Part shown: piece by piece, positions 524 through 13,825 of the stretch
How the letters are laid out: every line of letters begins with the position of its first letter
Numbering within the stretch: position 1 is the stretch's first letter
Source of the DNA: Demequinaceae bacterium
GTDB lineage: Bacteria > Actinomycetota > Actinomycetes > Actinomycetales > Demequinaceae
Direction of reading: 5' to 3'
Assembly (NCBI GenBank): GCA_965250005.1
Contig: OZ252279.1
Coordinates: 1,800,001-1,832,000, forward strand
Length of the DNA stretch: 32,000 bases
The notes under the pieces: model-generated
What the model was told of the DNA's origin: nothing
The model's database searches: none
What the model saw: only the letters and a program-made list of their open reading frames with translations
Position numbers and translations under genes: made by a program

Positions 524-598
524 GTGCAAGTCCGAAGTCTGATTGTTGGCGCCGTCGTTGTCGCGCTTTCTGCATCCATGGCTCAGCCAGCTTCTGCG
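524..598 (+). other. Predicted Sec signal peptide
   Basis: MQVRSLIVGAVVVALSASMAQPASA|FEA has a basic n-region, a hydrophobic core and an AxA-type cleavage motif. Judged by eye only. Confidence 0.65.
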
Positions 599-3500
599 TT
601 CGAGGCCGTTGTTGCGCCCGTGCCTGCCGCTCAGTTCAGCTCCGAGACCCCTGCGCCGGCTCCGGATTGCCAGCTCTATCCGCTTGCGCTCTCTACAGAG
701 GTACTCGCGGAAGCCGAGGTGGGCATCAACTTTTTGCGTGTGCCGCTTGGTAATGGTACGGGCAACTTTTCGTTCTTGAGTTGGGCAGGCGTGAACGACG
801 CCGACGTGTTTGCCGCCGCGATCGCCGCTGACGGCGGCGCCGCTGGTTACGTGAACCCAGAGGACCCGGCAGACTCGCAGCTTGACTTGGGCGACTGGGT
901 GCAGGGACTGCCTGGTGTCAAGAACAGTTCTGGAGTGCGCGCCAACTTGGACGCTCTGATTGGCGCAGAGATCGCGGTGCCAACGTGGAGCGAACTACGC
1001 GGCGAGGGCGACGAGCTTGACTACAGCGTCGATGGTTTCGCGCGAATCAAGCTCCTCAGTTACAAGCTTTCCGGCAAGGGCTGGATTAGTTTCGAATACG
1101 TGGGTGACACCCAGTGTTACATCGAACCAGAAACGAACCAACTGCCGCTTGCTGAGGCTCAGGCTCTCGACACGGACAGCGAGACCCCAATTTTGATCGT
1201 GCTCGAAGGTAGCGACGCAGACGGCGATGCCATCACGTTTGACCTCGCGAGCCAGCCGGCGAATGGCGCACTCTGGGGCACCGCTCCGCAACTTACCTAC
1301 GTATCAGACGCCGACTACATTGGGCCAGATAGCTTCGAATTCACAGTGAATGACGGCTCTGACGATTCGCAGTTGGCAACCGTAAGTATCGATGTCGCGC
1401 GTCCCAACGACGCGCCCGTCATCACCTCGACGCCCTCACTCTCAGGACAGTTGGGCGACCCATACGATTACGCGGTCGCTGCCGTCGACCCGGACGGGGA
1501 CGCGCTCGCCTACACGCTCGCTACGACAGAACCCGGCTTGACCGTCGACCCGGCAACTGGCCTGGTGTCGGGACTGCCCCAGTCCTCCGCATGGCTCGAG
1601 GCTGTTGGCGGACCCGACCCTGCTTGCAAATCCTTCGACAGGAGTGTCTCCGAGCTCAACATGGAGCTTGGCTGGCATTGGAGAAGCCCAATCAATGGGC
1701 TGTCGAGCACTGTCATGGGTACTCCCGTGGTCGCCAGGATCGTTGACATTAATGGCGACGGTGTAGTGGATGAACTTGATCCGCCCACGGTTGTGTTCGC
1801 GGCGTTCCTCCGCACCTGGTCGGATGGTGCGTACGTAGTTGCAGTCAATGGGGAGACTGGCGCAACGCTGTGGATCAGTTCCCGGCGCAGGGTTTCCGGA
1901 TTCTCGTCGCCGGCAGTGGGAGACATCGACGGCGACGGCCGACTCGACATCGTCTATGTTGGCGCGCACGATCGCACGGAGTTGGTTGCATTCGACCACA
2001 CGGGCGCCCTGAAATGGATCGCCCCGACGGGGCCGGTCAGCCCCCATTTGCCCCTGCGCAACGCGTGGGACTGGGTTTCTCTTGCTGACCTTGACGCCGA
2101 TGGCGACGTCGAGGTGGTGCACGGAAACCGCGTGTTCGATGGTGCTGGCAACCTGCTGTGGATAGGCGCGGACACCACGGGTGGACACTCGGCTGGCGGA
2201 GTCGGATCGATTGTCGCTGACCTCGACCAAGACGGATTCCAGGAGGTCATCGCGGGCCGAACCGTCTACACCCATGACGGCCAAATAAAGAGCACCAATC
2301 CGGACTTGCCAGAGTTTGCATTTAATGCGATTGGTGACTTTGACGGTGACGGTGACCCGGAGATAGTCGTCAACGGCACGGGCGGCTCGAGCGGGATCTT
2401 TCTGGTCGACCACGAGATGAATGTCATCTGGGGGCCTGTTGAGCACCCGGGCGCATCGAGCAGGGTAGGTGGCCCGCCCACCGTGGCCGACTTTGACGGC
2501 GACGGCCACATTGACATCGGCATCGCCGGAGAATCTCGGTACGCCACGTTCGACCGCAACGGGGATGTGGTGTGGTCGCAGATTATCCAGGACTATTCGT
2601 CTGCCGTGACCGGGTCTTCGGTATTCGATTTCGACGGCGACGGACGGGCGTCGGTGGTGTTTGCGGATGAGTACCACTTGTACGTGCTTGATGGCCCTAC
2701 TGGCGTTCCGGAGGCCACTTTCTCCAACCGATCGGGCACGGCGCACGAGTTCCCCATCGTTGTTGACTCGACCGGCGACGGGCTCGCGAACATCATTGTG
2801 CCCGCGACTCAGACGCGTTTGAGCGTGGGCGGCGTCCGCATGTACCAGTCGGCTGATTTGTCGTGGATGCCTACGCGCTCCATCTGGAATCAGCATGCGT
2901 ACTCGATCGGAAACGTCAACGACGACGGGACCATCCCCGCCCACCCTGAACCCAGCTGGCAGACGCACAACACGTTCCGTCTCAACAGCCAACCTGATCG
3001 CACCGCGTACGGACTTTCGGACATCTCACTGGGTGGGCTCTCGCTGACGGGCGGCCCCACGTATCACACGCTCAACGTCACCGTTGAGAGCCGCGGACTC
3101 GCGGACTACCCCGGACAGAGCTCCGTTGAGTTCTTCGCGGTCGATGCCGCGGGCGTCGAGGTCAGTTTGGGCGAGGTTGCTGTGCCCGAACTGGTGCGCG
3201 GAAGCTCGCACGTTGCGCACCTCGTGGGAGTCAACGCAGCCGACGTCGAAGGCAAAGTGGTCAAGGCGGTTCTTCGCGAGCCTGCCGGGATGACGCAGTG
3301 CGACAACTCGAACGACTGGGCCGCCGCGCAGGCGGTCACGGTCACCGCAGAGGACCCGTTTGGGCTGGCGGACTCGCAGATTTACTTGCTCAAGCTCCAC
3401 GGGGCGAACACGGCGCCCACAATTTCGAGCGCGGCAGTTCAAGCCGTTGAGGCGCGCACGCTCTACGAGTACCCGGTGGTGGCGACCGATGCCGACCGCG

Positions 3501-6500
3501 GCGACAGTATCCACTACACGCTTCTCGATTCGCCCACCGGAATGTGGATCAATGGCGTGACCGGCCAGATTGTCTGGAAGACCGGCGATGAAGGGGTGGG
3601 CGATCACCTGGTCACCGTTCAGGTTGAGGACATTGCGGGCGCCATCGATGTGCAGACGTTCACGCTGACCGTCGGCCCGAGCCTCAACCCGCAGCTTCCG
3701 CCCTCCATCGTGAGCGACGCACCCACGCGCGCAACGGTGAACGGCGAGTACCGGTACCAGGTGCAGGCACCTTCGCCTGATGGTCTGCCGGTGGAGTTCT
3801 CGCTTGCGGTCCGGCCGGTGGGCATGACCATCGATTCGGTTACTGGCGAGATCGTGTGGACACCGTCGGCGTTCCAATCTGGCGAGGCCTTCGTTGTGGT
3901 CCGCGCGATTGACTCGAACCTCCACTTCGACTTGCAGGAATTCGTTCTCATCATCGCGTCTTCGGACACCAACGAGGCCCCACACATTACGAGCGCCACC
4001 GGCGATTTTGTGCTCGCGGGAGAAGTGTTCTCGTACCAGGCTCAGGCCGTCGACTTCGACGGTGACACGGTGGCGTTCGCAGTTCAGGGCGCGCCCGCAG
4101 GTCTCGCGATCAACGCCACGACTGGGCTCGTCACGTGGAACACCGCGGGCGTTACCTCGGCGCAGTATTCGTTCACGCTTGTGGCGTCGGACGCGCGCGG
4201 CGGCATCGACTATCAAGTGGTCACCGTGTCCGTGAACTCCGGTGCGAACGTTGCGCCTGAGGCCACGAGCACGCCGAACACCATTGTTGGGCTGGGCGAG
4301 ACCTGGACCTACACGTTTGCCGCGATCGACGGCGACGCCGATGTTCTCACGTACAGCGTCGAGGAAGGGCCAACTGGCCTCACGATCGACGCCGTCACTG
4401 GCGAGGCGCTTTGGGATGCATCCGGAGCTCAGCCCGGTGAACACCCGGTTGCTCTCCAAGCCACCGACGGTCGCGGCGGGTTCGCGACGCAGACGTTCAT
4501 TTTGCAGTTGGGCGACCTCACCGAAAACTTCCCCCCCACCATTGCCAGCATGCCAGCTGTCAGCCTGATCGTGGGCAGCGAATGGCAATATACGGTGCTC
4601 GCATCCGACACCGACGGCGACGCGGTCACCGTGATCGTCACCGAGGGCCCCGTGGGAATGGCCGTTGAAGGCGCAAACACCGTCACGTGGACGCCAGGCG
4701 AAACTGACGCGGGCGCGCACACCGTCACCATCGAAGCGCACGACGGGCTCGGCGGCGTGGCACGCCAATTCTTCACGGTCTATGTTGCGCCCGTAGGCAT
4801 CAGCATTGACCTGGCCCCGCCCACCATCAGCGTTGGCTCGGTATACGTGGAGCCGGGAACGCTCGTACAGCTCCCCGTGTCCGCCTCAGATGCCTCAAGC
4901 ATTTTGTCGCTGTTCTTGACGGTCGACGGCATCCCGATCGACATTTCTGCCGCTGGTATCGCAGAGTTTGTCGCCGGCGAGGCAGGCGCGTACCCCATGG
5001 TTGTCAGCGCGACGGACGGCGCATTCAACTCTGCGGTCGTATCGACGTGGATGATCGTGGGCGGCGTCGCTGACGGCGTGGCCCCCGAGGCGTTCTTCGG
5101 CGGCCCCGAGACGGGCGAAGAACTACGCACAGCCACCTCGCTGGTGGGTACAGCAAACGATGCAAACCTGCTCCGTTGGGAACTCACGGCGACCCCCGTG
5201 TCTCCCGCAGGCTCCGCGTCGATCATCATTGGCAGCGGGACGGACCCGGTAGTGGACGGCGAACTGGGCGTCTTCGACCCGTCGGCCCTCGCGGGCGGCG
5301 AGTGGTACCTCCAACTGGAGGTGTTCGATCAGGGCGGCCTCATCTCGACCATCGGCTACGTGGTGTCCTCGGTCAACGAAGCCAAGTACGGCCTGTTCTC
5401 CATGACGTTCACGGACGCCGTGGTGCCGGTGGCGGGAATGCCCATCACCATTCAGCGCACATACAACTCGGGCGCATCGACCCGGCCGGGCGACTTTGGA
5501 TTCGGCTGGGACCTGAGCCTGCAGACGCTCATGCTGGAGACCGACTACGCCCCGGGCGTGGGCTGGGACCGCGAGAACCAGGGCACGATCCTGCCCAACT
5601 GGGTGCTGCTGCCCGCCACATCCCACACAGTCACCATTCTCGATGGCGCCAGCGAGTCAATCGTCTTTGACTTCACGCCACGATTCCTCGACCCCGTATT
5701 CGATGGACGGTATGTTTCTGCCGAGTGGACCGAGCGGACGTCCACGGGCGCCACGCTCACCCCGCTCGACTCCACCGAACTGTTCCAGAACGACGGCAGG
5801 CTACTGTCCCTCGACAACCTCGAAACCTTCGTGCCTGAGGGTTACCGCGTGACCATGGCCGACGGCAGGGAGTTCACCTTCTCGCTGGAGGACGGCCTCA
5901 CCAACGTTCGTGACGCGAACGGAAACACGCTCACGATAAGCGACTCGGGCATCACGTCTTCTGCCGGCGCGAGCATTGCACTTGCCCGCGACCCGCAAGG
6001 CAGGATCACCTCGGTGACCACTCCCGGCGGACTAGTGACGCAGTACCGCTACGACGGTGCTGGCGACCTGGTCGCGGTCACGGACCCCGAGGGCTACGTC
6101 ACCAACTACGCGTACAACTCGAAGCACTACCTGACCGGAATCATCGACCCGCTGGGTCGCGTCCCGGCCCGCAACGAGTACGACGAGGACGGCCGCCTGG
6201 TCGCGATCGTCGACGCACAGGGCAACCGCATCGAAATCAACGCGGACCCGGACGCGCGCACCCAGACGGTCACCGACCGCCTGGGCAACGTGACGGTTCA
6301 GACGTTCGACGCGGGCGGCTACCTGATCGGCCAAGTGTTCGCGGACGGCACCACCGAGAGCTACGCTAACGACGCACTGGGCAACCGCACGTCTCGCACG
6401 GACGGTCTGGGCAACACATGGACTGCCACGTATGACGCAAGCCAAAACCGCACGTCCGTCACGGACCCGCTGGGCAACACCAAGACGTGGACCTACGACG

Positions 6501-9500
6501 CATCCAACCGCCTGATCAGTGCCACGGACGCGCTGGGCCGCACCACCGCAGTCACATACGACGCGCGTGGCAACGCCACCACGGTGACGTACCCGGACGG
6601 CACCCAGGTGACGTTCACGTACGACGCTGCTGGCAACCCCTTGACGGAGACGGACGAGTCCGGCCGCGTGACCACCAACGGGTACGACGCGACGGGACGC
6701 ATGACATCCACGACGTCCCCGGGCGGCTCGGTCACCAGCTACACATACGACGCGGATGGTCGTGTCAGTACTGTTACGGACGCCGAGGGTGGAGTGACCG
6801 CGCGCACCTACGACGGTCGCGGTCTGATAACCGGCTCCACGGATGCGTTGGGTGCGCTCAGCCAGTCCGGGTTTGACGCACTAGGTCAGCGGACCTCGTA
6901 TGTGGATGCGGTGGGCGGTACGTCGTCCATGGCTTATGACGAGCTGGGGCGGATGACGTCCCGCACGTCCCCCACGGCAGACGTGTCCACCTACGTCTAC
7001 GACGCTGAGGGCCGCATGGTTGGCTCCACCAGCCCTGACGGCGTGGTGCGCACCACCGCATACGATGTGCTCGGGCGAGTGTTGAACTCGAAGGTGGATG
7101 GCGTGACGGTGTCGAGCCGCACGTATGACGCCGCGGGGCGAGTTGTTACGGCGACCAACGCGACGGGCGCGACCACCACGTACACGTATGACGCGGCGGG
7201 CCGCTCCGTCGGTGCGACGTATGCGGATGGCACGGCAACCGCGACGGTGTTTGATGCGGCCGGTCAGGTGCTGTCGATGACATCGACGGCTGGCACGGTG
7301 TCGTATGCGTATGACTCGCGTGGGCGGGCAACATCAGTGACGGCCACCGATGGTGCCGTCACGGGCTACTCGTATGACGCTGCGGGCCGGGTGTTGACGC
7401 AGACGGCCCCGGATGGCGCTGTCACCACGTTTACGTATGACGCGGACGGGCGTATGGCGTCCGCGAGCGACCCACTGGGTAACACCGCACAGGTGTCGTA
7501 TGACGGCAACGGCCAGCGCGTGTCTGTGGTGGATCCGTTGGGTCGGACCCGGGTGTGGACTCTGGATGCGGTAGGGCGTCTGCTGACGTATTCGGTTGCA
7601 GGCCAGAGCCAACTGACGCAGATCTTTGATGCGGCAGGCAGGTTGACATCACGCACCCTCGGCGACGGCACCATCACCGCCTACACGTATGACGCTGCGG
7701 GCCGGTTGACGGTCATCGATTATGCGGACCGGGTGGACGCGACGTTCACGTATACGGATGCCGGACGCCGGGCGACGGTCACGGACCAGCGCGGCACGAC
7801 GTCCTATGGGTACGACTCACAGGGTCGCCTGACGTCGGTGGCCTCCCCGGAGGGCAACATCGGCTACGGGTATGACGCCGCCAGCCGGTTGACGTCCATC
7901 ACCACAGCCGCGGGCACCACCAGTTACACGCGCGACGCTTTGGGGCGTATCAGCGGCGTCACTGACCCTGACGGTGGCGTCTATCTGATTGCCCGCGACA
8001 GTGCGGGCCGGGTCAGTGCGGTCACATATCCCAACGGTGTCACGGAATCCTTCACGCGGGACGATGCGGGCAGGGCGATGGCTGTCACTGTCACCGACGC
8101 GCTTGGCACCGTGCTGGCCTCGCACACCGCGACCCGGGACGTTGCCGGCCGGATCACCGCGTTGGATGACGTATTCGACGCTGGTGTGGGCGCAGCGAAC
8201 GTATCCAGGGCCTTCGGATACGACGCAGCAGGCCGCCTCACGCAAGTCATCTCAGATGCCACAGGTAGCTCTTCGACCGTTGACTACACGTTGGATGGTT
8301 TAGGTAACCGGGCGTCCACATCCACGGACGGCACTGTCGTTGCCTCCACCGTGAACGACCTGGATCAGCTGACCTCCCAGGGCAGCAACGCGTTCACGTA
8401 TGACGACGCGAGCAGGCTCACCTCAGCCACAGGCCCGGGAGGTGCGTCCACGTATGCGTGGTCATCGCAGGGTGAACTACTCAACGCAGCCACTCCGGCC
8501 GGCACCATCAACTACGTCTATGACACCGATGGCAACGTCACCACCCGCACCGAAACCGGTGTGGCTGTGGACTTCGTGTATGACACCGTCAGCGGCCTAC
8601 CTCGGGCCGTCAGCGCCTCCGACGGCACCTGGTGGATATACGCAGACGGCATGATCCTCGCCCAACACACCGCTACTGGACCAACGACACCCGGCACCAC
8701 CGCCTATTTGCACAGTGACGTCCGTGGAGACGTGCGCACCGCCACCAATACTGCCGGCACCATCACCGACACCTTCACCTGGACCGTCGACGGGCAGCAG
8801 ACCACCCGCACCGGCACCACCACCGTCACCGTCGGCTGGCGTTCCGAGACCGTCGACACCACCACCGGGCTCATCTGGCTACGGGCCCGCTGGTATGACC
8901 CAACAACAGCCCGCTTCCTCAGCGCAGACCCGTGGCACGGCAACCCCGCCAACCCCATCAGCCTCAACCGCTACCTCTACGCCAACGCCGACCCCGTCAA
9001 CATGCACGACCCGACAGGGATGTTCACAACGACGGAGCAAACGTCTGCTGTGATCCCGACGCAAGGAGTCCTGTACGGGATACGCGGCATGAGCGTCACA
9101 CGTGCGCGTGCGATCGTACAGGCCGTTGTCGACTCCCTAGCTGCCTCAATAACACTGGCCTGGTCCGCGTACGCGGTGTTCGGGATTGACGACCCTGCGG
9201 CAGGCGAAGACGTCGACCGAAGCGGATCACGCGACGAGCCACTACCCGACATCGAGATATTCGAACGCGACTCTAACGACCCTGAACTCCAGCCCGCTGC
9301 AGATGGGGCGGGGGCGCAGAAACCACCCAAGAACTGTATGCCGCGGTCGACTCCGACGGGCGTCGATGAACTAGTCGAAGACGCGGCTGAATGGTTGGGG
9401 GCGGGGGCGCGCGTAATCACCAACGCGGCGGGCGATAAGATCTTCTTGTCGGCGGATGGGTTGCGAAGGATAAGGTTTGACATCAACCGTCCGTCTCCGC

Positions 9501-9592
9501 ACTTGTCTCCACACGCGCATGTCGAGGAGAAACTTGGCGGCAAGTGGACCGGGTCAGGCCAGTTGTATCCGTGTGACGTGGCGAGGAGGTAG
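524..9592 (+). CDS. Full-length secreted RHS/YD-repeat polymorphic toxin (WapA/teneurin-like architecture), 3022 aa
   Basis: Single uninterrupted 9-kb ORF with GTG start and an SD site. N-terminal signal-peptide-like segment. Cadherin-like and FG-GAP repeats. Dozens of YD repeats (Y.YD..GR/N). Core end motif RARWYDPTTARFLSADPWHGNPANPISLNRYLYANADPVNMHDPTGM, followed by a non-repetitive ~190-aa tail. Confidence 0.93.
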   Translation: MQVRSLIVGAVVVALSASMAQPASAFEAVVAPVPAAQFSSETPAPAPDCQLYPLALSTEVLAEAEVGINFLRVPLGNGTGNFSFLSWAGVNDADVFAAAIAADGGAAGYVNPEDPADSQLDLGDWVQGLPGVKNSSGVRANLDALIGAEIAVPTWSELRGEGDELDYSVDGFARIKLLSYKLSGKGWISFEYVGDTQCYIEPETNQLPLAEAQALDTDSETPILIVLEGSDADGDAITFDLASQPANGALWGTAPQLTYVSDADYIGPDSFEFTVNDGSDDSQLATVSIDVARPNDAPVITSTPSLSGQLGDPYDYAVAAVDPDGDALAYTLATTEPGLTVDPATGLVSGLPQSSAWLEAVGGPDPACKSFDRSVSELNMELGWHWRSPINGLSSTVMGTPVVARIVDINGDGVVDELDPPTVVFAAFLRTWSDGAYVVAVNGETGATLWISSRRRVSGFSSPAVGDIDGDGRLDIVYVGAHDRTELVAFDHTGALKWIAPTGPVSPHLPLRNAWDWVSLADLDADGDVEVVHGNRVFDGAGNLLWIGADTTGGHSAGGVGSIVADLDQDGFQEVIAGRTVYTHDGQIKSTNPDLPEFAFNAIGDFDGDGDPEIVVNGTGGSSGIFLVDHEMNVIWGPVEHPGASSRVGGPPTVADFDGDGHIDIGIAGESRYATFDRNGDVVWSQIIQDYSSAVTGSSVFDFDGDGRASVVFADEYHLYVLDGPTGVPEATFSNRSGTAHEFPIVVDSTGDGLANIIVPATQTRLSVGGVRMYQSADLSWMPTRSIWNQHAYSIGNVNDDGTIPAHPEPSWQTHNTFRLNSQPDRTAYGLSDISLGGLSLTGGPTYHTLNVTVESRGLADYPGQSSVEFFAVDAAGVEVSLGEVAVPELVRGSSHVAHLVGVNAADVEGKVVKAVLREPAGMTQCDNSNDWAAAQAVTVTAEDPFGLADSQIYLLKLHGANTAPTISSAAVQAVEARTLYEYPVVATDADRGDSIHYTLLDSPTGMWINGVTGQIVWKTGDEGVGDHLVTVQVEDIAGAIDVQTFTLTVGPSLNPQLPPSIVSDAPTRATVNGEYRYQVQAPSPDGLPVEFSLAVRPVGMTIDSVTGEIVWTPSAFQSGEAFVVVRAIDSNLHFDLQEFVLIIASSDTNEAPHITSATGDFVLAGEVFSYQAQAVDFDGDTVAFAVQGAPAGLAINATTGLVTWNTAGVTSAQYSFTLVASDARGGIDYQVVTVSVNSGANVAPEATSTPNTIVGLGETWTYTFAAIDGDADVLTYSVEEGPTGLTIDAVTGEALWDASGAQPGEHPVALQATDGRGGFATQTFILQLGDLTENFPPTIASMPAVSLIVGSEWQYTVLASDTDGDAVTVIVTEGPVGMAVEGANTVTWTPGETDAGAHTVTIEAHDGLGGVARQFFTVYVAPVGISIDLAPPTISVGSVYVEPGTLVQLPVSASDASSILSLFLTVDGIPIDISAAGIAEFVAGEAGAYPMVVSATDGAFNSAVVSTWMIVGGVADGVAPEAFFGGPETGEELRTATSLVGTANDANLLRWELTATPVSPAGSASIIIGSGTDPVVDGELGVFDPSALAGGEWYLQLEVFDQGGLISTIGYVVSSVNEAKYGLFSMTFTDAVVPVAGMPITIQRTYNSGASTRPGDFGFGWDLSLQTLMLETDYAPGVGWDRENQGTILPNWVLLPATSHTVTILDGASESIVFDFTPRFLDPVFDGRYVSAEWTERTSTGATLTPLDSTELFQNDGRLLSLDNLETFVPEGYRVTMADGREFTFSLEDGLTNVRDANGNTLTISDSGITSSAGASIALARDPQGRITSVTTPGGLVTQYRYDGAGDLVAVTDPEGYVTNYAYNSKHYLTGIIDPLGRVPARNEYDEDGRLVAIVDAQGNRIEINADPDARTQTVTDRLGNVTVQTFDAGGYLIGQVFADGTTESYANDALGNRTSRTDGLGNTWTATYDASQNRTSVTDPLGNTKTWTYDASNRLISATDALGRTTAVTYDARGNATTVTYPDGTQVTFTYDAAGNPLTETDESGRVTTNGYDATGRMTSTTSPGGSVTSYTYDADGRVSTVTDAEGGVTARTYDGRGLITGSTDALGALSQSGFDALGQRTSYVDAVGGTSSMAYDELGRMTSRTSPTADVSTYVYDAEGRMVGSTSPDGVVRTTAYDVLGRVLNSKVDGVTVSSRTYDAAGRVVTATNATGATTTYTYDAAGRSVGATYADGTATATVFDAAGQVLSMTSTAGTVSYAYDSRGRATSVTATDGAVTGYSYDAAGRVLTQTAPDGAVTTFTYDADGRMASASDPLGNTAQVSYDGNGQRVSVVDPLGRTRVWTLDAVGRLLTYSVAGQSQLTQIFDAAGRLTSRTLGDGTITAYTYDAAGRLTVIDYADRVDATFTYTDAGRRATVTDQRGTTSYGYDSQGRLTSVASPEGNIGYGYDAASRLTSITTAAGTTSYTRDALGRISGVTDPDGGVYLIARDSAGRVSAVTYPNGVTESFTRDDAGRAMAVTVTDALGTVLASHTATRDVAGRITALDDVFDAGVGAANVSRAFGYDAAGRLTQVISDATGSSSTVDYTLDGLGNRASTSTDGTVVASTVNDLDQLTSQGSNAFTYDDASRLTSATGPGGASTYAWSSQGELLNAATPAGTINYVYDTDGNVTTRTETGVAVDFVYDTVSGLPRAVSASDGTWWIYADGMILAQHTATGPTTPGTTAYLHSDVRGDVRTATNTAGTITDTFTWTVDGQQTTRTGTTTVTVGWRSETVDTTTGLIWLRARWYDPTTARFLSADPWHGNPANPISLNRYLYANADPVNMHDPTGMFTTTEQTSAVIPTQGVLYGIRGMSVTRARAIVQAVVDSLAASITLAWSAYAVFGIDDPAAGEDVDRSGSRDEPLPDIEIFERDSNDPELQPAADGAGAQKPPKNCMPRSTPTGVDELVEDAAEWLGAGARVITNAAGDKIFLSADGLRRIRFDINRPSPHLSPHAHVEEKLGGKWTGSGQLYPCDVARR
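1130..1585 (+). other. Two cadherin-like / Ig-like domains in the N-terminal region
   Basis: The patterns ...GSDADGDAITFDLASQPANGAL...YVSDADYIGPDSFEFTVNDGSDDS..NDAP and VITSTP..YDYAVAAVDPDGDALAYTL...PGLTVDPATGLVSG are typical of bacterial cadherin-like / putative Ig (dystroglycan-type) domains. Confidence 0.55.
1680..2960 (+). other. Eight FG-GAP/VCBS-type repeats (probable beta-propeller)
   Basis: Eight regularly spaced Ca-binding-like motifs: DINGDGVVDE, GDIDGDGRLDIV, ADLDADGDVEVV, ADLDQDGFQEVI, GDFDGDGDPEIV, ADFDGDGHIDIG, FDFDGDGRASVV, VDSTGDGLANII. Confidence 0.75.
3408..4790 (+). repeat. Five tandem ~95-aa cadherin-like (putative Ig / dystroglycan-type) domain repeats
   Basis: Five units begin NTAPTISS, LPPSIVSD, NEAPHITS, NVAPEATS and NFPPTIAS. 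Each contains Y.Y.V.A.D.DGD..(Y/F).. ..P.G(M/L).I(D/N)..TG...W followed by ..D..GG...Q.F.L.V. Confidence 0.7.
5385..9022 (+). other. YD-repeat shell and RHS core of the main gene
   Basis: Starts near YGLFSMTFTDAVVPVAGMPITIQRTYNS. Continuous YD repeats run to the DPxGM motif at 9008-9022. Confidence 0.9.
5984..9022 (+). repeat. ~3.0-kb direct repeat shared with orphan cassette 2 (16097-19135)
   Basis: The coordinate offset is +10113 at both ends (gcccgcgac at 5984 vs 16097; gacccgaca at 9008 vs 19121), so there is no net indel. Long near-identical stretches are visible, e.g. ~6040-6440 vs ~16150-16550. Confidence 0.9.
9023..9589 (+). other. Variable C-terminal toxin region CT-0 (linker plus ~84-aa tip)
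   Basis: Non-repetitive sequence after DPTGM. The first ~105 aa are shared with cassette 4. The tip is unique: ...GDKIFLSADGLRRIRFDINRPSPHLSPHAHVEEKLGGKW... Confidence 0.7.
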
Positions 9593-9597
9593 TTGGG

Positions 9598-9792
9598 ATG
9601 CAGATTCAAGATGAGGGCGGCAAGATCATCGCAACGTACGCCTGCCTGCAGTTGACAGTCCCCGAAGCGGAAGAACTCCGCGACAAGATCGAGTTGCTCC
9701 TCGATGATCAGAGTGCGGATCGACACGAACACGTCTCGAGCGCCGACTTCCAGACAGAGATAACCGTGTGGCTCGATCGCGGCGAGGCCTGA
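9598..9792 (+). CDS. Putative cognate immunity protein for CT-0 (64 aa, acidic)
   Basis: ATG lies 5 nt after the rhs stop codon. GAGGAGG (9583-9589) sits 8 nt upstream. Its position is typical of Rhs immunity genes. No recognisable family. Confidence 0.55.
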   Translation: MQIQDEGGKIIATYACLQLTVPEAEELRDKIELLLDDQSADRHEHVSSADFQTEITVWLDRGEA

Positions 9793-10552: not shown

Positions 10553-11470
10553 TTAGAGACTCGTGAATGCCCGCTCCGGGTTCGGCGCGGGGTTGTTCTG
10601 TGAAGCGTAGTGGGCTTGCTCGTATTCGACTGGTGGGACGTGTCCAATCTCGCCGTGGAGGCGTCGGTGGTTGAACCAGTCGATATATTCGACGACCGCG
10701 ATCTCGAGGTCGGTGATGGATCTCCAGGGCCCCCGGTTTCGGACCAGCTCGGCTTTGAATAGCGAGTTGAAGGCTTCCGCGAGGGCGTTGTCGTAGGAGT
10801 CGCCGCGGGAACCGACGGAAGCGACGACACCCGCCTCGCAGAGGCGTTGCGTGTAGCGGATAGCTCGATATTGAACGCCCCTGTCACTGTGATGAATCAG
10901 AGCAGTCACGTCTCGCCCGTCACGATGCCGCGACCACAACCTCATCTCTAAGGCATCCAAAGCCAGGTCGGTGCGTAGCGACGTAGACAGTTGCCAGCCG
11001 ACGACCCGTCGGGAGCACACATCGATCACGAACGCTGCGTAAGCCCAGCCACTGAAGGTGCGAATGTAGGTGATGTCCGCGACCCACAACTGGTCAGGAC
11101 GTTCGGCCCTGAACTGGCGATCCACGAGGTCCAAGGGACGTTCCGTTTCGCCCCCAGGGATCGTCGTGCGAGGAGACTTCACCCGGGCAATGCCTCGTAA
11201 ACCCTCCCGACGCATGAGACGTTCTACGGTGCACCGAGCAACCCGGTGACCTCGCCGAACCAGTTCACCATGGACTTTCCGTACCCCATAGACACCGTAG
11301 TTCTCGGCATGGATTTCACGGATCAAGACGAGAAGACCCGCGTCCCGGACGGCTCTGACCGACGGCGGCCGCGACCGGGCCGCATAGTACGTCGCTGGGG
11401 CGATCGGCAACTGTGCACAGATCGGCTCGACCCCGAAGACATCCTTGTTCTCGTCAATGTAGGTGATCAT
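10553..11470 (-). CDS. IS3-family transposase OrfB (DDE integrase core)
   Basis: 305 aa with the DDE triad context WVADITYI ... HSDRGVQY ... DNALAEAFN. It lies in the -1 frame relative to orfA, with an ATGA start/stop overlap. Confidence 0.9.
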   Translation of the reverse strand: MITYIDENKDVFGVEPICAQLPIAPATYYAARSRPPSVRAVRDAGLLVLIREIHAENYGVYGVRKVHGELVRRGHRVARCTVERLMRREGLRGIARVKSPRTTIPGGETERPLDLVDRQFRAERPDQLWVADITYIRTFSGWAYAAFVIDVCSRRVVGWQLSTSLRTDLALDALEMRLWSRHRDGRDVTALIHHSDRGVQYRAIRYTQRLCEAGVVASVGSRGDSYDNALAEAFNSLFKAELVRNRGPWRSITDLEIAVVEYIDWFNHRRLHGEIGHVPPVEYEQAHYASQNNPAPNPERAFTSL

Positions 11471-11787
11471 CGTGTCGGTGGGCGGTCGAGCTCCGCCGCG
11501 AAGAAAGCCGAAGCACTCTTCAAGATCGCATTCGCTCGACGTAACTCTCGAACCTCACGCTCCAACACCGCGATCCTCGACGCATCATCGGTCGTGGTCC
11601 CCGGACGATGCCCCCCATCCACCTCCGCGCGCCTCACCCACGTCCGCAACGACTCCCGATGGATCCCCAACTGGTCAGCAATCCTCGCCATCGACCCCCG
11701 GCTCGTCGCCGGGTCCCGTCTCGCATCAAGCGCCAACCGTGTCGCCCGCTCCCTAAGTTCCGGCGAATACTTCCTCGGTGCTCCCAT
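11467..11787 (-). CDS. IS3-family transposase OrfA (helix-turn-helix)
   Basis: MGAPRKYSPELRERATRLALDARRD...IADQLGIHRESLRTWVRRAE... plus a leucine-zipper-like tail (REVRELRRANAILKSASAFFAAELD). The ATG at 11787 has a GGATGAGGA SD site. The longer track ORF reaching 11844 is probably an over-extension. Confidence 0.8.
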   Translation of the reverse strand: MGAPRKYSPELRERATRLALDARRDPATSRGSMARIADQLGIHRESLRTWVRRAEVDGGHRPGTTTDDASRIAVLEREVRELRRANAILKSASAFFAAELDRPPTR

Positions 11788-11839
11788 AGTCCTCATCCTT
11801 CCCTGCAATGAAAGCCTCCACCAAACCCGGGGCGATACA

Positions 11840-13825
11840 TACACCTATGACGCGTCAGGACGGTTGACCGCGATCGATTATGCGGACCGCGCGGATGCAA
11901 CATTCACGTATACGGATGCTGGTCGTCGGGCGACGGTCACAGATCACCGGGGCACCACCACGTACGCGTACGACTTGCAGGGGCGTCTCACATCGGTGGC
12001 CTCCCCTGAGGGCAGTGTTGGTTACGGATATGACGCCGCCAGCCGGTTGACGTCGTTGACGACCGCCGCGGGCACCACGGCGTATGTGCGCGACGCTCTG
12101 GGACGTATCAGCCAAGTCACCGACCCTGACGGCGGCATCTATGCGATTGCTCGAGATTCTGCGGGCCGAGTCAGTGCGCTCACGTATCCCAACGGTGTCA
12201 TCGAGACGTTCACGCGGGATGCTGCAGGCAGGGCAATGTCCGTCACCGTCGCGGACGCCCTCGGCACCGTGTTGGCCTCCCACACCGCACAACGGGACGT
12301 AGCAGGCCGCATCACTGTCCTGGATGACGTATTCGACGGTGTGGTCGGTGCAGCAGACGTATCACGAGACTTCGGGTACGACGCAGCGGGTCGCCTGACG
12401 CAAGTCATCTCAAATGCAACCGGCAGCTCATCGACCGTTGACTACACGCTCGATGGTCTAGGCAACCGGGCATCCACATCCACAGACGGCACTGTCGTGG
12501 CGTCCACCGTCAATGATCTGGACCAGCTGACCACCCAGGGCAGCAACGCGTTCACCTATGACGACGCGGGCAGGCTCACCGCGGCCACCGGCCCCGCTGG
12601 CACGTCAACGTTTGCGTGGTCCTCCCAGGGTGAACTGCTGTCTGCGGCCACTCCGGCCGGAACCGTCGACTACGCCTACGACACCGATGGCAACGTCACC
12701 ACCCGCACCGAAACCGGCGTGGCTGTGGACTTCGTGTATGACACCGTCAGCGGCCTACCTCGGGCCGTCAGCGCCTCCGACGGCACCTGGTGGGTGTATG
12801 CGGACGGCATGATCCTGGCCCAACACACCGGAACTGGATCAACGGCACCCGGCACCACGGCCTATCTGCACAGTGACGTGCGCGGTGACGTGCGCACCGC
12901 AACCGACGCAACCGGCACAGTCACCGACACATGGACGTGGACCGTCGACGGGCAGCTGACCGCCCGCACCGGCACCACCACCGTCACCGTCGGTTGGCGC
13001 GGCGAAACCGTAGACACCACCACTGGGCTCATCTGGCTCAGAGCCCGCTGGTACGACCCAACAACAGCCCGCTTCCTATCGGCAGACCCATGGCACGGCA
13101 ACCCCGCCAACCCCATCAGCCTCAACCGGTATGCGTACGCCAACGCCGACCCCGTCAACATGCACGACCCGACGGGGCTGTCAGTAGAGACTGGCGTGGC
13201 CCCGCTCACCGCCGCGGCCGCGACAAACTCGACGCTGCTAGCGATCTCGATCTACGCGGGCGCGATAGTGCTGGCGAACGTGCTTGGCGTTGTTGCCGGT
13301 CGTGGCCTGACTGCGCTACTTGGCGACGGTCAAGGCCCAGTACTCGACCTTGACGGCCCCGACGACGAGCGCAGAATCGAAGGGACCCCTGAGACTCAGC
13401 TCGAGCCCGATGCTTCGCCGTTTACGCAACCAAACCCGGGTTCGTCTTCGGACGGCAAGGTAGCTGTCTATCGTGTATTCGGAGGACCGTCGGGTGTGAA
13501 TGGAAACTCGTGGACGACGGTTAACCCTGTGGCGTTTGAACATGCGAATGGCGAGGGCTCCTTTCGAGAATTCTCAGGGTTGCCGCCGTTCAACACAGGC
13601 GAGAACCTCGTGAGCGGTTTGATCGATGCTGAGTATCTTGCGGGGCTAGGTGGTCGCTATGGCCTACCGTGGGATCAGGAAAACTATTCCGTTCTTGGGG
13701 AGGGAGTCCCTGAAGTGCTGATTCTAGGTGGATGTAGCAACCCCGCACTCACGTGCTCGGCGCCAGTGCGAGTTCATCCGATGTTTCGGATACTTGACCA
13801 GCACTACAACGGCGGCGTGGGGTAG
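11840..13825 (+). pseudogene. Orphan rhs cassette 1, 3' piece with toxin region CT-1
   Basis: Resumes in frame at YTYDASGRLTAIDY (main equivalent 7682, offset +4158). YD repeats run to RYAYANADPVNMHDPTGL (13166-13180), followed by a distinct ~215-aa CT. The track ORF 11246-13825 owes its N-terminus to IS antisense sequence. Confidence 0.85.

What the first reader, a model, noticed from the sequence alone, without database searches (positions are those of the whole stretch)
9023..9592. Bipartite CT: CT-0 and CT-4 share a ~105-aa linker and switch to unrelated toxin tips right after a conserved KPPK.C
After DPTGM, the main gene (9023-9337) and cassette 4 (24795-25109) encode almost the same sequence: FTTTEQTSAVIPTQGVLYGIRGMS..RARAIVQAVVDSLAASITLAWSAYAVFGIDDPAAGEDVDRSGSRDEPLPDIEIFERDSN.PELQPAA...KPPK.C. 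The offset stays +15772, so there is no indel. Immediately after the Cys codon (9335-9337 vs 25107-25109) the sequences become unrelated: an 84-aa tip versus a 95-aa tip. This implies a second recombination/modularity boundary inside the CT, with a conserved entry or translocation module carrying exchangeable catalytic tips. That is analogous to the two-domain organisation known for CdiA-CT regions.
Basis: seen in the sequence. Interest (0 to 1): 0.65.

Follow-up and report, generated by a model that had tools for sequence, protein, structure and literature searches.

The report
Shared pre-toxin module, swappable Rhs tips
The cargo of this actinobacterial Rhs "warfare" toxin has two parts, a conserved 105-residue leader that no database names and an exchangeable toxic tip joined at one invariant cysteine; this is a new variant of a known design and a testable lead on how such toxins are packed or delivered.

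Summary
After the Rhs core end (DPTGM, 9008-9022), the main gene (9023-9337) and orphan cassette 4 (24795-25109) encode the same 105-residue segment. 98 of 105 residues match, the offset is +15772, and there is no indel. Directly after the Cys codon the sequences become unrelated: an 84-aa tip versus a 95-aa tip.

One refinement: the DNA shows two steps, not one. Identity is 95% up to 9277. It is 70% over the last 20 codons, where 15 of 20 residues are still identical. It falls to chance level from 9338.

The segment belongs to a small family with no Pfam or NCBIfam match. I found 8 copies:
- three in this genome
- four in three related genomes
- one in a metagenomic protein

All follow an Rhs core end and all end in ...PELQP..G....PPxxC. 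They carry six different tip types, including Ntox24 and Ntox16. Linkers group by genome, while tips group by type.

The modular boundary is therefore real. The proposed entry or translocation role is not shown. The helix in CT-0 and CT-4 is only moderately hydrophobic, and a packing role inside the Rhs shell is a serious rival. Two-part cargo is already described as pre-toxin domains and PreT-CT in WapA. Other windows of this scan noted similar spacers in other Rhs lineages of this genome.

Verdict: a new variant of a known kind, of moderate interest.

The parts
524..9592 (+). Main rhs gene (3022 aa from GTG 524). Domains: Big_9, FG-GAP, He_PIG, DUF6531 and 20 RHS repeats. No PAAR, VENN or LXG domain.
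524..598 (+). Sec-type signal peptide read from the sequence (MQVRSLIVGAVVVALSASMAQPASA|FEAV). It exists only if translation starts at GTG 524. The database gene call starts 18 codons later.
   Evidence: inference from sequence, no predictor was run
8927..9022 (+). Rhs core end with two DPxG motifs (DPWHG ... DPTGM, 22 residues apart). This is the presumed aspartyl autoproteolysis site, with cleavage after DPTGM.
   Evidence: motif role from PMC8636562; cleavage not tested here
9023..9337 (+). CT-0 pre-toxin module (the 'linker'): 105 aa, 11 kDa, pI 4.2
9059..9181 (+). Predicted helical part of the module (residues 13-53), including the moderately hydrophobic helix VVDSLAASITLAWSAYAVF
   Evidence: low-confidence models; hydropathy
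9182..9337 (+). Acidic spacer rich in Pro and Gly, predicted disordered (14 D+E against 5 K+R in 52 aa). It ends in the conserved junction motif PELQP(9281-9295)...KPPKNC.
9278..9337 (+). Last 20 linker codons: 70% nt identity but 15 of 20 aa identical to cassette 4. This is old divergence under protein-level constraint. The recent conversion tract ends at about 9277.
9335..9337 (+). Junction Cys (residue 2938), invariant in all 8 family members. The only other Cys downstream of residue 926 is Cys3017, in tip A.
9338..9589 (+). Tip A (84 aa, 9.1 kDa). No Pfam, NCBIfam or PDB relative. Predicted layout is one helix followed by strands. It contains a D-x14-ExK pattern and a short SADGLRxIRF match to the tail of another Rhs in this genome.
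9598..9792 (+). Candidate immunity gene for tip A (64 aa, pI 4.2). GAGGAGG lies 8 nt upstream of the ATG.
   Evidence: inferred from position
23912..24794 (+). Cassette 4: orphan rhs core fragment homologous to main 8140-9022 (93.5% nt)
24795..25109 (+). CT-4 pre-toxin module (105 aa), 93% identical to that of CT-0. Junction Cys codon at 25107-25109.
25110..25394 (+). Tip B (95 aa, 10.4 kDa), ending in Cys. It has no named family. It carries an H-x3-R-x3-R motif and a weak match (E 0.001) to the tail of the Rhs at G000:909364-917739.
25397..25600 (+). Candidate immunity gene for tip B (67 aa, pI 4.2). Its ATG overlaps the stop codon (TGATG).
   Evidence: inferred from position
13181..13825 (+). 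CT-1, for comparison. It diverges from CT-0 directly at DPTGL but has the same layout: hydrophobic helix, acidic spacer, tip.
19136..19780 (+). CT-2, for comparison. Its tip is homologous to that of CT-1. CT-3 at 22353-22997 is 78-79% identical to CT-2.

Best explanation
The region after the Rhs core end is a two-part cargo.

Part 1 (105 aa) is a lineage-restricted pre-toxin module that no database names. It has a short helix, a long moderately hydrophobic helix, and an acidic spacer rich in Pro and Gly. The spacer ends in PELQP..G....PPxxC.

Part 2 is a small exchangeable toxin domain, followed by its own small immunity gene.

Shown:
- The module is homologous in 8 cargos and carries 6 tip types.
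- It is under purifying selection.
- Homology stops at one invariant Cys.
- Within a genome, linkers are kept alike by recombination tracts that run from the Rhs core into the module. The module therefore serves as extra 5' homology for installing a tip and its immunity gene from an orphan cassette.

Inferred:
- The protein is exported by Sec.
- The shell cleaves itself after DPTGM, so module and tip are released as one 20-21 kDa piece.
- After release, the module acts as a common delivery adaptor for unrelated tips. The helix would engage the target cell's membrane or a membrane protein, and the spacer would hold the tip away from it.
- The junction Cys probably pairs with the single Cys at or near the C-terminus of tips A, B and C.
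For: Junction and no-indel offset:
-.

Purifying selection:
- 9 synonymous against 2 non-synonymous codon differences in codons 1-85.
- 8 synonymous differences in the last 20 codons, with 15 of 20 residues kept.

Family members, all found after an Rhs core end:
- a second full-length Rhs in the own genome
- two cassettes in a same-genus MAG
- two genomes of another genus in the same family
- the metagenomic protein P0009

Invariant positions, from the alignment:
- L17, D65, P75, Q90, G95, PP and C.

Tips:
- Ntox24 in three members (E 4.5e-8 to 2.8e-11).
- Ntox16 (E 1.5e-16), starting at residue 2 after the Cys.
- A weak GIY-YIG match.

Discordance between linkers and tips:
- The three Ntox24 tips are 57-63% identical, but their linkers are only 26-32% identical.
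- Linkers within one genome are 93%, 59% and 38-41% identical despite carrying unrelated tips.

Other genomes:
- In G402 the two linkers are anciently diverged (55-70% nt) yet homologous, and they carry unrelated tips.
- The Ntox24 tip travels with a homologous immunity gene (61% identity).
- Ntox24 also sits behind a different pre-toxin region in another Rhs lineage, and there it has no C-terminal Cys.

Cys distribution:
- There is none in the Rhs shell.
- The cargo holds only the junction Cys and one tip Cys.

Secondary structure:
- helix 13-20, helix 25-53, then coil to the tip.
Against: - No experiment and no confident structure: pLDDT is 47 and 40.
- The helix of CT-0 and CT-4 is only marginally hydrophobic. 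The Kyte-Doolittle 19-residue mean is 1.46, and the approximate insertion energy is +5. Only two family members reach values typical of membrane helices.
- The family is tiny and confined to one actinobacterial family. The conservation could therefore partly reflect shared descent.
- Cys pairing does not hold for all members: tip D has no Cys, and the Ntox16 cargo has an odd number.
- Autocleavage, Sec export and immunity function are inferred from motifs and position only.
- The faster divergence of linkers than of Ntox24 tips could partly reflect different rates of change rather than reassortment.
Confidence: 0.55

Rival explanations
1. Packing adaptor only. The module lines the inside of the Rhs barrel next to the C-terminal plug. 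It helps load the tip and keep it unfolded, and it has no role in the target cell.
For: - The N-terminal part of the released WapA fragment (PreT, carrying a PT-TG motif) was inferred to aid encapsulation by contacting the barrel's inner surface (PMC12704120).
- Cargo density inside Rhs shells is disordered (PMC8636562, PMC10684867).
- Linkers group with their own genome's Rhs core rather than with the tip, as expected if they co-evolve with the shell.
- The helix is only moderately hydrophobic.
Against: - CT-1, CT-2 and CT-3 use the same shell (the core sequence up to DPxGL is nearly the same). Their N-terminal regions differ in sequence and align with the CT-0 family not at all or only weakly. 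The shell therefore does not require this particular module.
- The invariant PELQP...PPxxC motif lies at the tip-proximal end, far from the cleavage site.
Confidence: 0.28
2. A passive constant region. The shared segment is only a footprint of recent recombination between the main gene and cassette 4, with no function of its own.
For: - Identity in 9023-9277 (95%) matches that of the adjacent core (93.5%), as expected for one conversion tract.
- Orphan cassettes are known substrates for such exchange (Koskiniemi et al. 2014, cited in PMC12704120).
Against: - Synonymous changes dominate.
- The last 20 codons are old at the DNA level but conserved as protein.
- Homologues at 21-41% identity in other genera keep the same layout and the invariant junction motif, with other tips.
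- In G402 the linkers are anciently diverged yet retained.
Confidence: 0.06
3. The module is itself the membrane-damaging toxin (a pore former or ionophore), and the tips are accessory.
For: - Rhs and CdiA cargos that act on membranes exist (Tse5, PMC10684867; CDI ionophores, PMC11630599).
- Every CT type in the array begins with a hydrophobic helix.
Against: - There is only one helix, and it is weakly hydrophobic in CT-0 and CT-4.
- The tips include recognised enzymatic toxin families, Ntox24 and Ntox16.
- Each tip type has its own downstream gene. The immunity candidates are small, acidic and apparently soluble, and they follow the tip rather than the module.
Confidence: 0.04

Closest known systems
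Pre-toxin (PT) domains of polymorphic toxins, such as PT-TG (PF14449), and the 'PreT-CT' fragment of Streptococcus suis WapA (PMC3482391, PMC13483458, PMC12704120)
   Same: - A conserved segment lies between the trafficking/Rhs part and a variable toxin domain.
- It is released together with the toxin after the Rhs core end.
- It combines with many toxin families.
- Its function is unknown; proposals are a linker, envelope interaction, or help with encapsulation.
   Different: - No match to PT-TG or to any other Pfam or NCBIfam model.
- A different make-up: a helix pair, an acidic disordered spacer and an invariant terminal Cys.
- Found in only one actinobacterial family.
[quoted passage not shown]
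   Same: - The released C-terminal region is bipartite.
- The N-terminal part is shared by unrelated toxins and reassorts with them.
- Cysteines occur in the delivery part.
   Different: - No CdiA, FHA or VENN context.
- The producer is a Sec-exporting actinobacterium, and its targets presumably lack an outer membrane.
- The module is mostly one helix plus a disordered spacer, not a folded entry domain.
- No receptor or entry function has been shown.
Enterobacterial and Bacillus rhs/wapA loci with orphan CT/immunity cassettes
   Same: - A full-length gene is followed by co-oriented 3' fragments, each with a tip and a small downstream gene.
- Exchange occurs by homologous recombination in the conserved core.
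   Different: In those loci the variable part classically starts at the PxxxxDPxGL boundary. Here one cassette shares a further 105 codons, so there is a second boundary downstream.
prePAAR/TMD regions of T6SS Rhs effectors (discussed in 10.1101/2025.10.28.685041)
   Same: A hydrophobic helix in an Rhs effector is proposed to help the cargo cross the target's cytoplasmic membrane.
   Different: - Those helices lie at the N-terminus, outside the shell, and need Eag chaperones.
- Here the helix is the first part of the encapsulated cargo.
- There is no PAAR domain.

Membership tests
Rhs/YD-repeat polymorphic toxin (Sec-dependent, WapA-like) | RHS/YD repeats forming the shell | tested here: met
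   PF05593, E 7.9e-135, 20 stretches; DUF6531 plug
Rhs/YD-repeat polymorphic toxin (Sec-dependent, WapA-like) | Core end with two DPxG-type motifs before the variable C-terminus | tested here: met
   DPWHG (8927-8941) and DPTGM (9008-9022), 22 residues apart. The canonical spacing is 17 (PMC8636562).
Rhs/YD-repeat polymorphic toxin (Sec-dependent, WapA-like) | Autoproteolytic release of the C-terminal cargo | not testable with these tools
   Needs protein chemistry
Rhs/YD-repeat polymorphic toxin (Sec-dependent, WapA-like) | Variable toxin followed by a cognate immunity gene, plus orphan cassettes | tested here: met
   - Five CTs in the window, each with a downstream ORF.
- The Ntox24 tip and its downstream gene travel together between genomes.
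- Immunity function itself was not tested.
Rhs/YD-repeat polymorphic toxin (Sec-dependent, WapA-like) | N-terminal Sec signal and no T6SS or T7SS targeting domain | tested here: inconclusive
   - A signal-like N-terminus exists only with the GTG 524 start.
- No PAAR, LXG or WXG domain in Pfam.
- No signal-peptide predictor was available.
CdiA-CT (entry domain plus toxin) | CdiA/FHA filament, a VENN (PT-VENN) boundary and a CdiB partner | tested here: not met
   No such Pfam domains in the 3022-aa protein or in the CTs. The resemblance is by analogy only.
PT-TG / PT-HINT pre-toxin domains | Match to the Pfam pre-toxin models | tested here: not met
   No Pfam family at E <= 1 for any CT and none in NCBIfam
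Ntox24 (PF15529), for the tips on homologous linkers | Score above the gathering cut-off of 24 bits | tested here: met
   33.7, 36.8 and 44 bits for the tips in G000 L003, G402 and G419. This does not apply to tips A and B.
Ntox16 (PF15523), for the tip in G403 | Score above the gathering cut-off of 25 bits | tested here: met
   60.9 bits, profile positions 7-84 of 85, starting at tip residue 2
DUF4258-like / PD-(D/E)xK nuclease, for tips B and A | Profile or fold match | tested here: not met
   Only motifs are present (H-x3-R-x3-R; D-x14-ExK). There is no Pfam, PDB or fold match. These remain leads, not assignments.

The most novel reading that the evidence does not exclude
The module is a self-contained delivery device for Rhs toxins aimed at cells without an outer membrane.
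- Its helix inserts into, or docks on, the target's cytoplasmic membrane.
- The acidic spacer threads the tip across.
- The invariant junction Cys forms a disulfide with the tip's C-terminal Cys. This keeps the tip closed and inactive outside the cell until it is reduced in the target cytoplasm.

That would be a redox-gated entry module embedded in the cargo, the Gram-positive counterpart of CdiA-CT entry domains.
Probability: 0.15. Interest if true: 0.75.

Novelty: new variant of a known kind. Interest (0 to 1): 0.45.

Why it matters
How Rhs/WapA cargos leave the shell and cross the target membrane is described as undefined or enigmatic (10.1101/2025.10.28.685041; PMC12704120). This is especially so for Sec-exported toxins of Gram-positive bacteria, which lack the N-terminal transmembrane region of T6SS Rhs effectors.

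This locus offers a natural experiment. One shell and one 105-residue leader carry two unrelated tips, and the same leader family carries Ntox24, Ntox16 and other tips in relatives. Domain swaps, helix deletions and Cys-to-Ser changes could separate three roles: packing, entry and toxicity.

The module also matters for annotation. Toxin-domain boundaries in actinobacterial Rhs proteins should be set at the junction motif, not at DPxGL.

The family is narrow and the general idea of pre-toxin modules is established, so the gain is incremental.

Tried and rejected
- Pfam and NCBIfam on all five window CTs and on the immunity candidates: no family.
- phmmer of the linker against 1.84 billion representative proteins: only two real hits, P0007 and P0009. 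The other two were low-complexity repeat proteins.
- Word-indexed searches of 5.8 billion proteins with the linker (in short and full-length context) and with tip B: only the query itself.
- Profile search of 400 genomes of the class: nothing outside the family.
- Genome-contig scan: only the same-genus MAG.
- Metagenome scan: none.
- PDB sequence searches for tips A, B, C and the CT-2 tip: nothing significant.
- AlphaFold2 of CT-0 and CT-4 with the 7-row linker alignment: pLDDT 47 and 40, used only for secondary structure.
- Foldseek search of the CT-0 model: no match at E <= 0.001.
- Tip A against 400 genomes of the order: two hits near E 1e-3, both in spurious high-G+C frames, rejected.
- hhalign of tip A against the Ntox24 tips: no relation.
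- CT-1 versus CT-2 as 'same tip, different linker': rejected as evidence. BLASTP aligns the whole CTs weakly, so they may simply be diverged homologues.
Full report
**1. Setting**

The nearest public record is a MAG titled 'uncultured Actinomycetota bacterium'.

ORF 524-9592 encodes a 3022-aa protein. It has Big_9, FG-GAP and He_PIG adhesin-type domains, a DUF6531 plug and 20 RHS-repeat stretches. It has no PAAR, LXG or VENN domain.

If translation starts at GTG 524, the N-terminus reads as a Sec signal...SASMAQPASA|FEAV. This is an inference. The database gene call starts 18 codons later.

The core ends with two DPxG motifs, DPWHG and DPTGM. In studied Rhs proteins, cleavage follows the second such motif (PMC8636562).

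Downstream on the same strand lie four orphan 3' fragments, each ending in its own CT and each followed by a small ORF. An IS integrase gene lies on the other strand at 10553-11470.

**2. The observation**

Main and cassette 4 align without gaps at offset +15772 from about 8140 to 9337. The identity profile falls in steps:

| Segment | Coordinates | nt identity | Codon differences |
|---|---|---|---|
| Core 3' part | 8140-9022 | 93.5% | 35 synonymous, 14 non-synonymous |
| Linker codons 1-85 | 9023-9277 | 95.3% | 9 synonymous, 2 non-synonymous |
| Linker codons 86-105 | 9278-9337 | 70% | 13 of 20 differ (8 synonymous); 15 of 20 residues identical |
| After the Cys | 9338-9592 | 30.6% (chance) | not comparable |

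- The step at 9277/9278 is significant (Fisher p = 1.6e-7).
- The tips (84 and 95 aa) are 15% identical in a global alignment, with a negative score.
- So the recent conversion tract ends about 60 nt before the Cys.
- The junction motif (D/A)PELQPAA.G.GA.KPPK.C is older DNA kept alike by selection.
- The Cys is the true limit of homology.

**3. Is the linker a module?**

The own genome has a second full-length Rhs (314640-323852, minus strand). Its CT begins with a 41%-identical linker ending DGAGARKPPPPC, followed by a third, unrelated tip.

A profile of the linkers found further copies only in the same taxonomic family:
- two cassettes in a same-genus MAG (G402)
- one copy each in two genomes of a neighbouring genus (G419, G403)
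- no copy in 400 genomes sampled across the class

phmmer against 1.84 billion representative proteins added one metagenomic Rhs fragment, P0009. Word-indexed searches of 5.8 billion proteins and a metagenome scan added nothing.

All 8 copies follow an Rhs core end. The alignment shows invariant L17, D65, P75, Q90, G95, PP and the terminal C.

The tips behind them fall into six types:
- A and B, in this window, with no named family.
- Ntox24 in three members (33.7-44 bits against a cut-off of 24).
- An unnamed type D.
- A weak GIY-YIG-like type E.
- Ntox16 (60.9 bits), whose Pfam match starts at the second residue after the Cys.

Discordance between linker and tip:
- The three Ntox24 tips are 57-63% identical, while their linkers are 26-32% identical.
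- Linkers within one genome are 93% (CT-0/CT-4), 59% (G402 a/b) and 38-41% (CT-0 and CT-4 against the second Rhs) identical despite unrelated tips.

Supporting points from other genomes:
- In G402 the two cassettes are 90-97% identical at the DNA level through the core end and the first ~17 linker codons. They are then 55-70% identical across the rest of the linker and unalignable after the Cys. The linker-tip junction is therefore old, not a by-product of one recent event.
- The Ntox24 tip carries its downstream gene with it (61% identity between genomes).
- Ntox24 also occurs behind an unrelated pre-toxin region in a different Rhs lineage of the same order.

Divergence is not gradual, and the linker is found with other tips.

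**4. Anatomy of the module**

The AlphaFold2 models are of low confidence (pLDDT 47 and 40) and are used only for secondary structure. Both give helix 13-17/20, a long helix 25-52/53, and coil up to the tip. The tips are predicted as one helix followed by strands.

The long helix is only moderately hydrophobic in CT-0 and CT-4:
- The Kyte-Doolittle 19-residue mean is 1.46.
- The approximate summed insertion energy is +5, using scale values recalled from Hessa et al. 2005.
- P0009 and G419 reach values typical of membrane helices (about 0).

The spacer is acidic: 14 D+E against 5 K+R in 52 residues, and the module's pI is 4.2.

The other CT families in the array (CT-1, CT-2/3) diverge from CT-0 directly at DPxGL. 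They still show the same order of parts: hydrophobic helix, acidic Pro-rich spacer, tip.

The whole cargo is 20-21 kDa. This fits within the limit of under 25 kDa estimated for Rhs shells (PMC8636562).

**5. The cysteine**

The main protein has six Cys, at residues 49, 198, 368, 926, 2938 and 3017. There are none in the roughly 2000-residue shell.

The cargo therefore holds exactly two: the junction Cys and one near the end of tip A. Tip B and all three Ntox24 tips end in Cys, whereas the Ntox24 tip behind a different pre-toxin region does not.

This suggests a disulfide that ties the two ends of the tip together. It is an inference only, and there are exceptions: tip D has no Cys, and the Ntox16 cargo has nine.

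**6. Mechanism**

Shown:
- A conserved, selected, reassorting module.
- A fixed junction.
- Tips that are recognised toxin families in relatives.
- Recombination tracts that run from the core into the module, so the module adds homology for tip exchange.

Inferred:
- Sec export.
- Cleavage after DPTGM.
- Release of module and tip together.
- A role for the module as a shared adaptor.

I favour a delivery role, meaning engagement with the target membrane or a membrane protein. My reasons are these:
- The same shell accepts CTs with quite different N-terminal sequences.
- All of those CTs keep the helix-spacer layout.
- The most conserved motif lies at the tip-proximal end.

The main rival is a packing role inside the barrel, as proposed for the PreT part of S. 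suis WapA (PMC12704120). That linkers group with their own genome's core fits this rival as well. A passive recombination footprint and a membrane-toxin role are unlikely, for the reasons given under the rival explanations.

**7. Comparison with what is known**

Pre-toxin domains between the trafficking and toxin parts were defined by Zhang et al. (PMC3482391). PT-TG is still described as a predicted linker or envelope-interaction domain (PMC13483458). WapA's released fragment is called PreT-CT (PMC12704120). CdiA-CT regions have entry and toxin domains (PMC9424206).

The present module matches none of the catalogued models and has its own make-up. It is therefore an uncatalogued, narrowly distributed variant of a known design.

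It works like a pre-toxin or CdiA-CT-type two-part cargo, but it is not a member of those families.

Earlier notes of this scan (e1-2554796, e1-2554863) describe other conserved helical spacers in other Rhs lineages of the same genome. One search shows their long post-core regions. Two-part or multi-part cargo thus seems to be the rule in this organism.

**8. Limits**

- The tips A and B have no relatives or fold assignment. The H-x3-R-x3-R and D-x14-ExK patterns are leads only.

Noticed in passing
window 10553-11470 (-): An IS-type transposase gene (rve integrase core plus HTH_21) lies between the main rhs gene's immunity region and cassette 1. The long 'ORF' 11246-13825 reads through its antisense strand before entering the rhs fragment.
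   Followed up: partly
G000:C1, whole genome: A 2.0-Mb genome carries at least seven full-length Rhs ORFs of 2750-3090 aa, from at least three lineages with different post-core regions, plus several orphan fragments. That is an unusually high load for so small a genome.
   Followed up: partly
window 524-580: The database gene call for the main protein (3004 aa) starts 18 codons after GTG 524. With that start the protein would have no signal peptide. The GTG start gives a typical Sec signal ending ASA.
   Followed up: partly
window 3302-9334 (residues 927-2937): The whole Rhs shell contains no cysteine. The six Cys of the protein sit in the N-terminal adhesin part (4) and the cargo (2).
   Followed up: partly
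window 9446-9478 and G000:C1:805231-813495: Tip A shares the stretch SADGLR(R/S)IRF, followed by an H-x-H-(x)-EE pattern, with the C-terminal domain of another Rhs lineage in the same genome (BLASTP E 4e-4 for the short segment). This may be a distant common toxin family sitting behind quite different pre-toxin regions.
   Followed up: partly
window 13181-13825, 19136-19780, 22353-22997: CT-1 and CT-2/3 carry homologous tips of no named family (VxVYRVxGG...SWTTV...PEV(L/I)I.GGC.NP...C; E 2e-21 over the aligned CTs). The ORFs that follow (244-281 aa) also have no family.
   Followed up: partly
G000:C1:311131-313278 (-): An orphan rhs fragment downstream of the second Rhs gene stops inside the core-end motif (...LNRYLYANAN*). 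It lacks any CT.
   Followed up: no
window 25788-26183 (+): A further short RHS-repeat fragment (131 aa, PF05593) lies after cassette 4's immunity gene. It may be a fifth, truncated cassette.
   Followed up: no
L014 (G546:C23:637-2217, -): An Ntox24-tipped Rhs in another family of the same order has a roughly 250-aa pre-toxin region with a C-x7-C pair and a Gly/Ala-rich hydrophobic stretch. This is another uncatalogued pre-toxin type.
   Followed up: no
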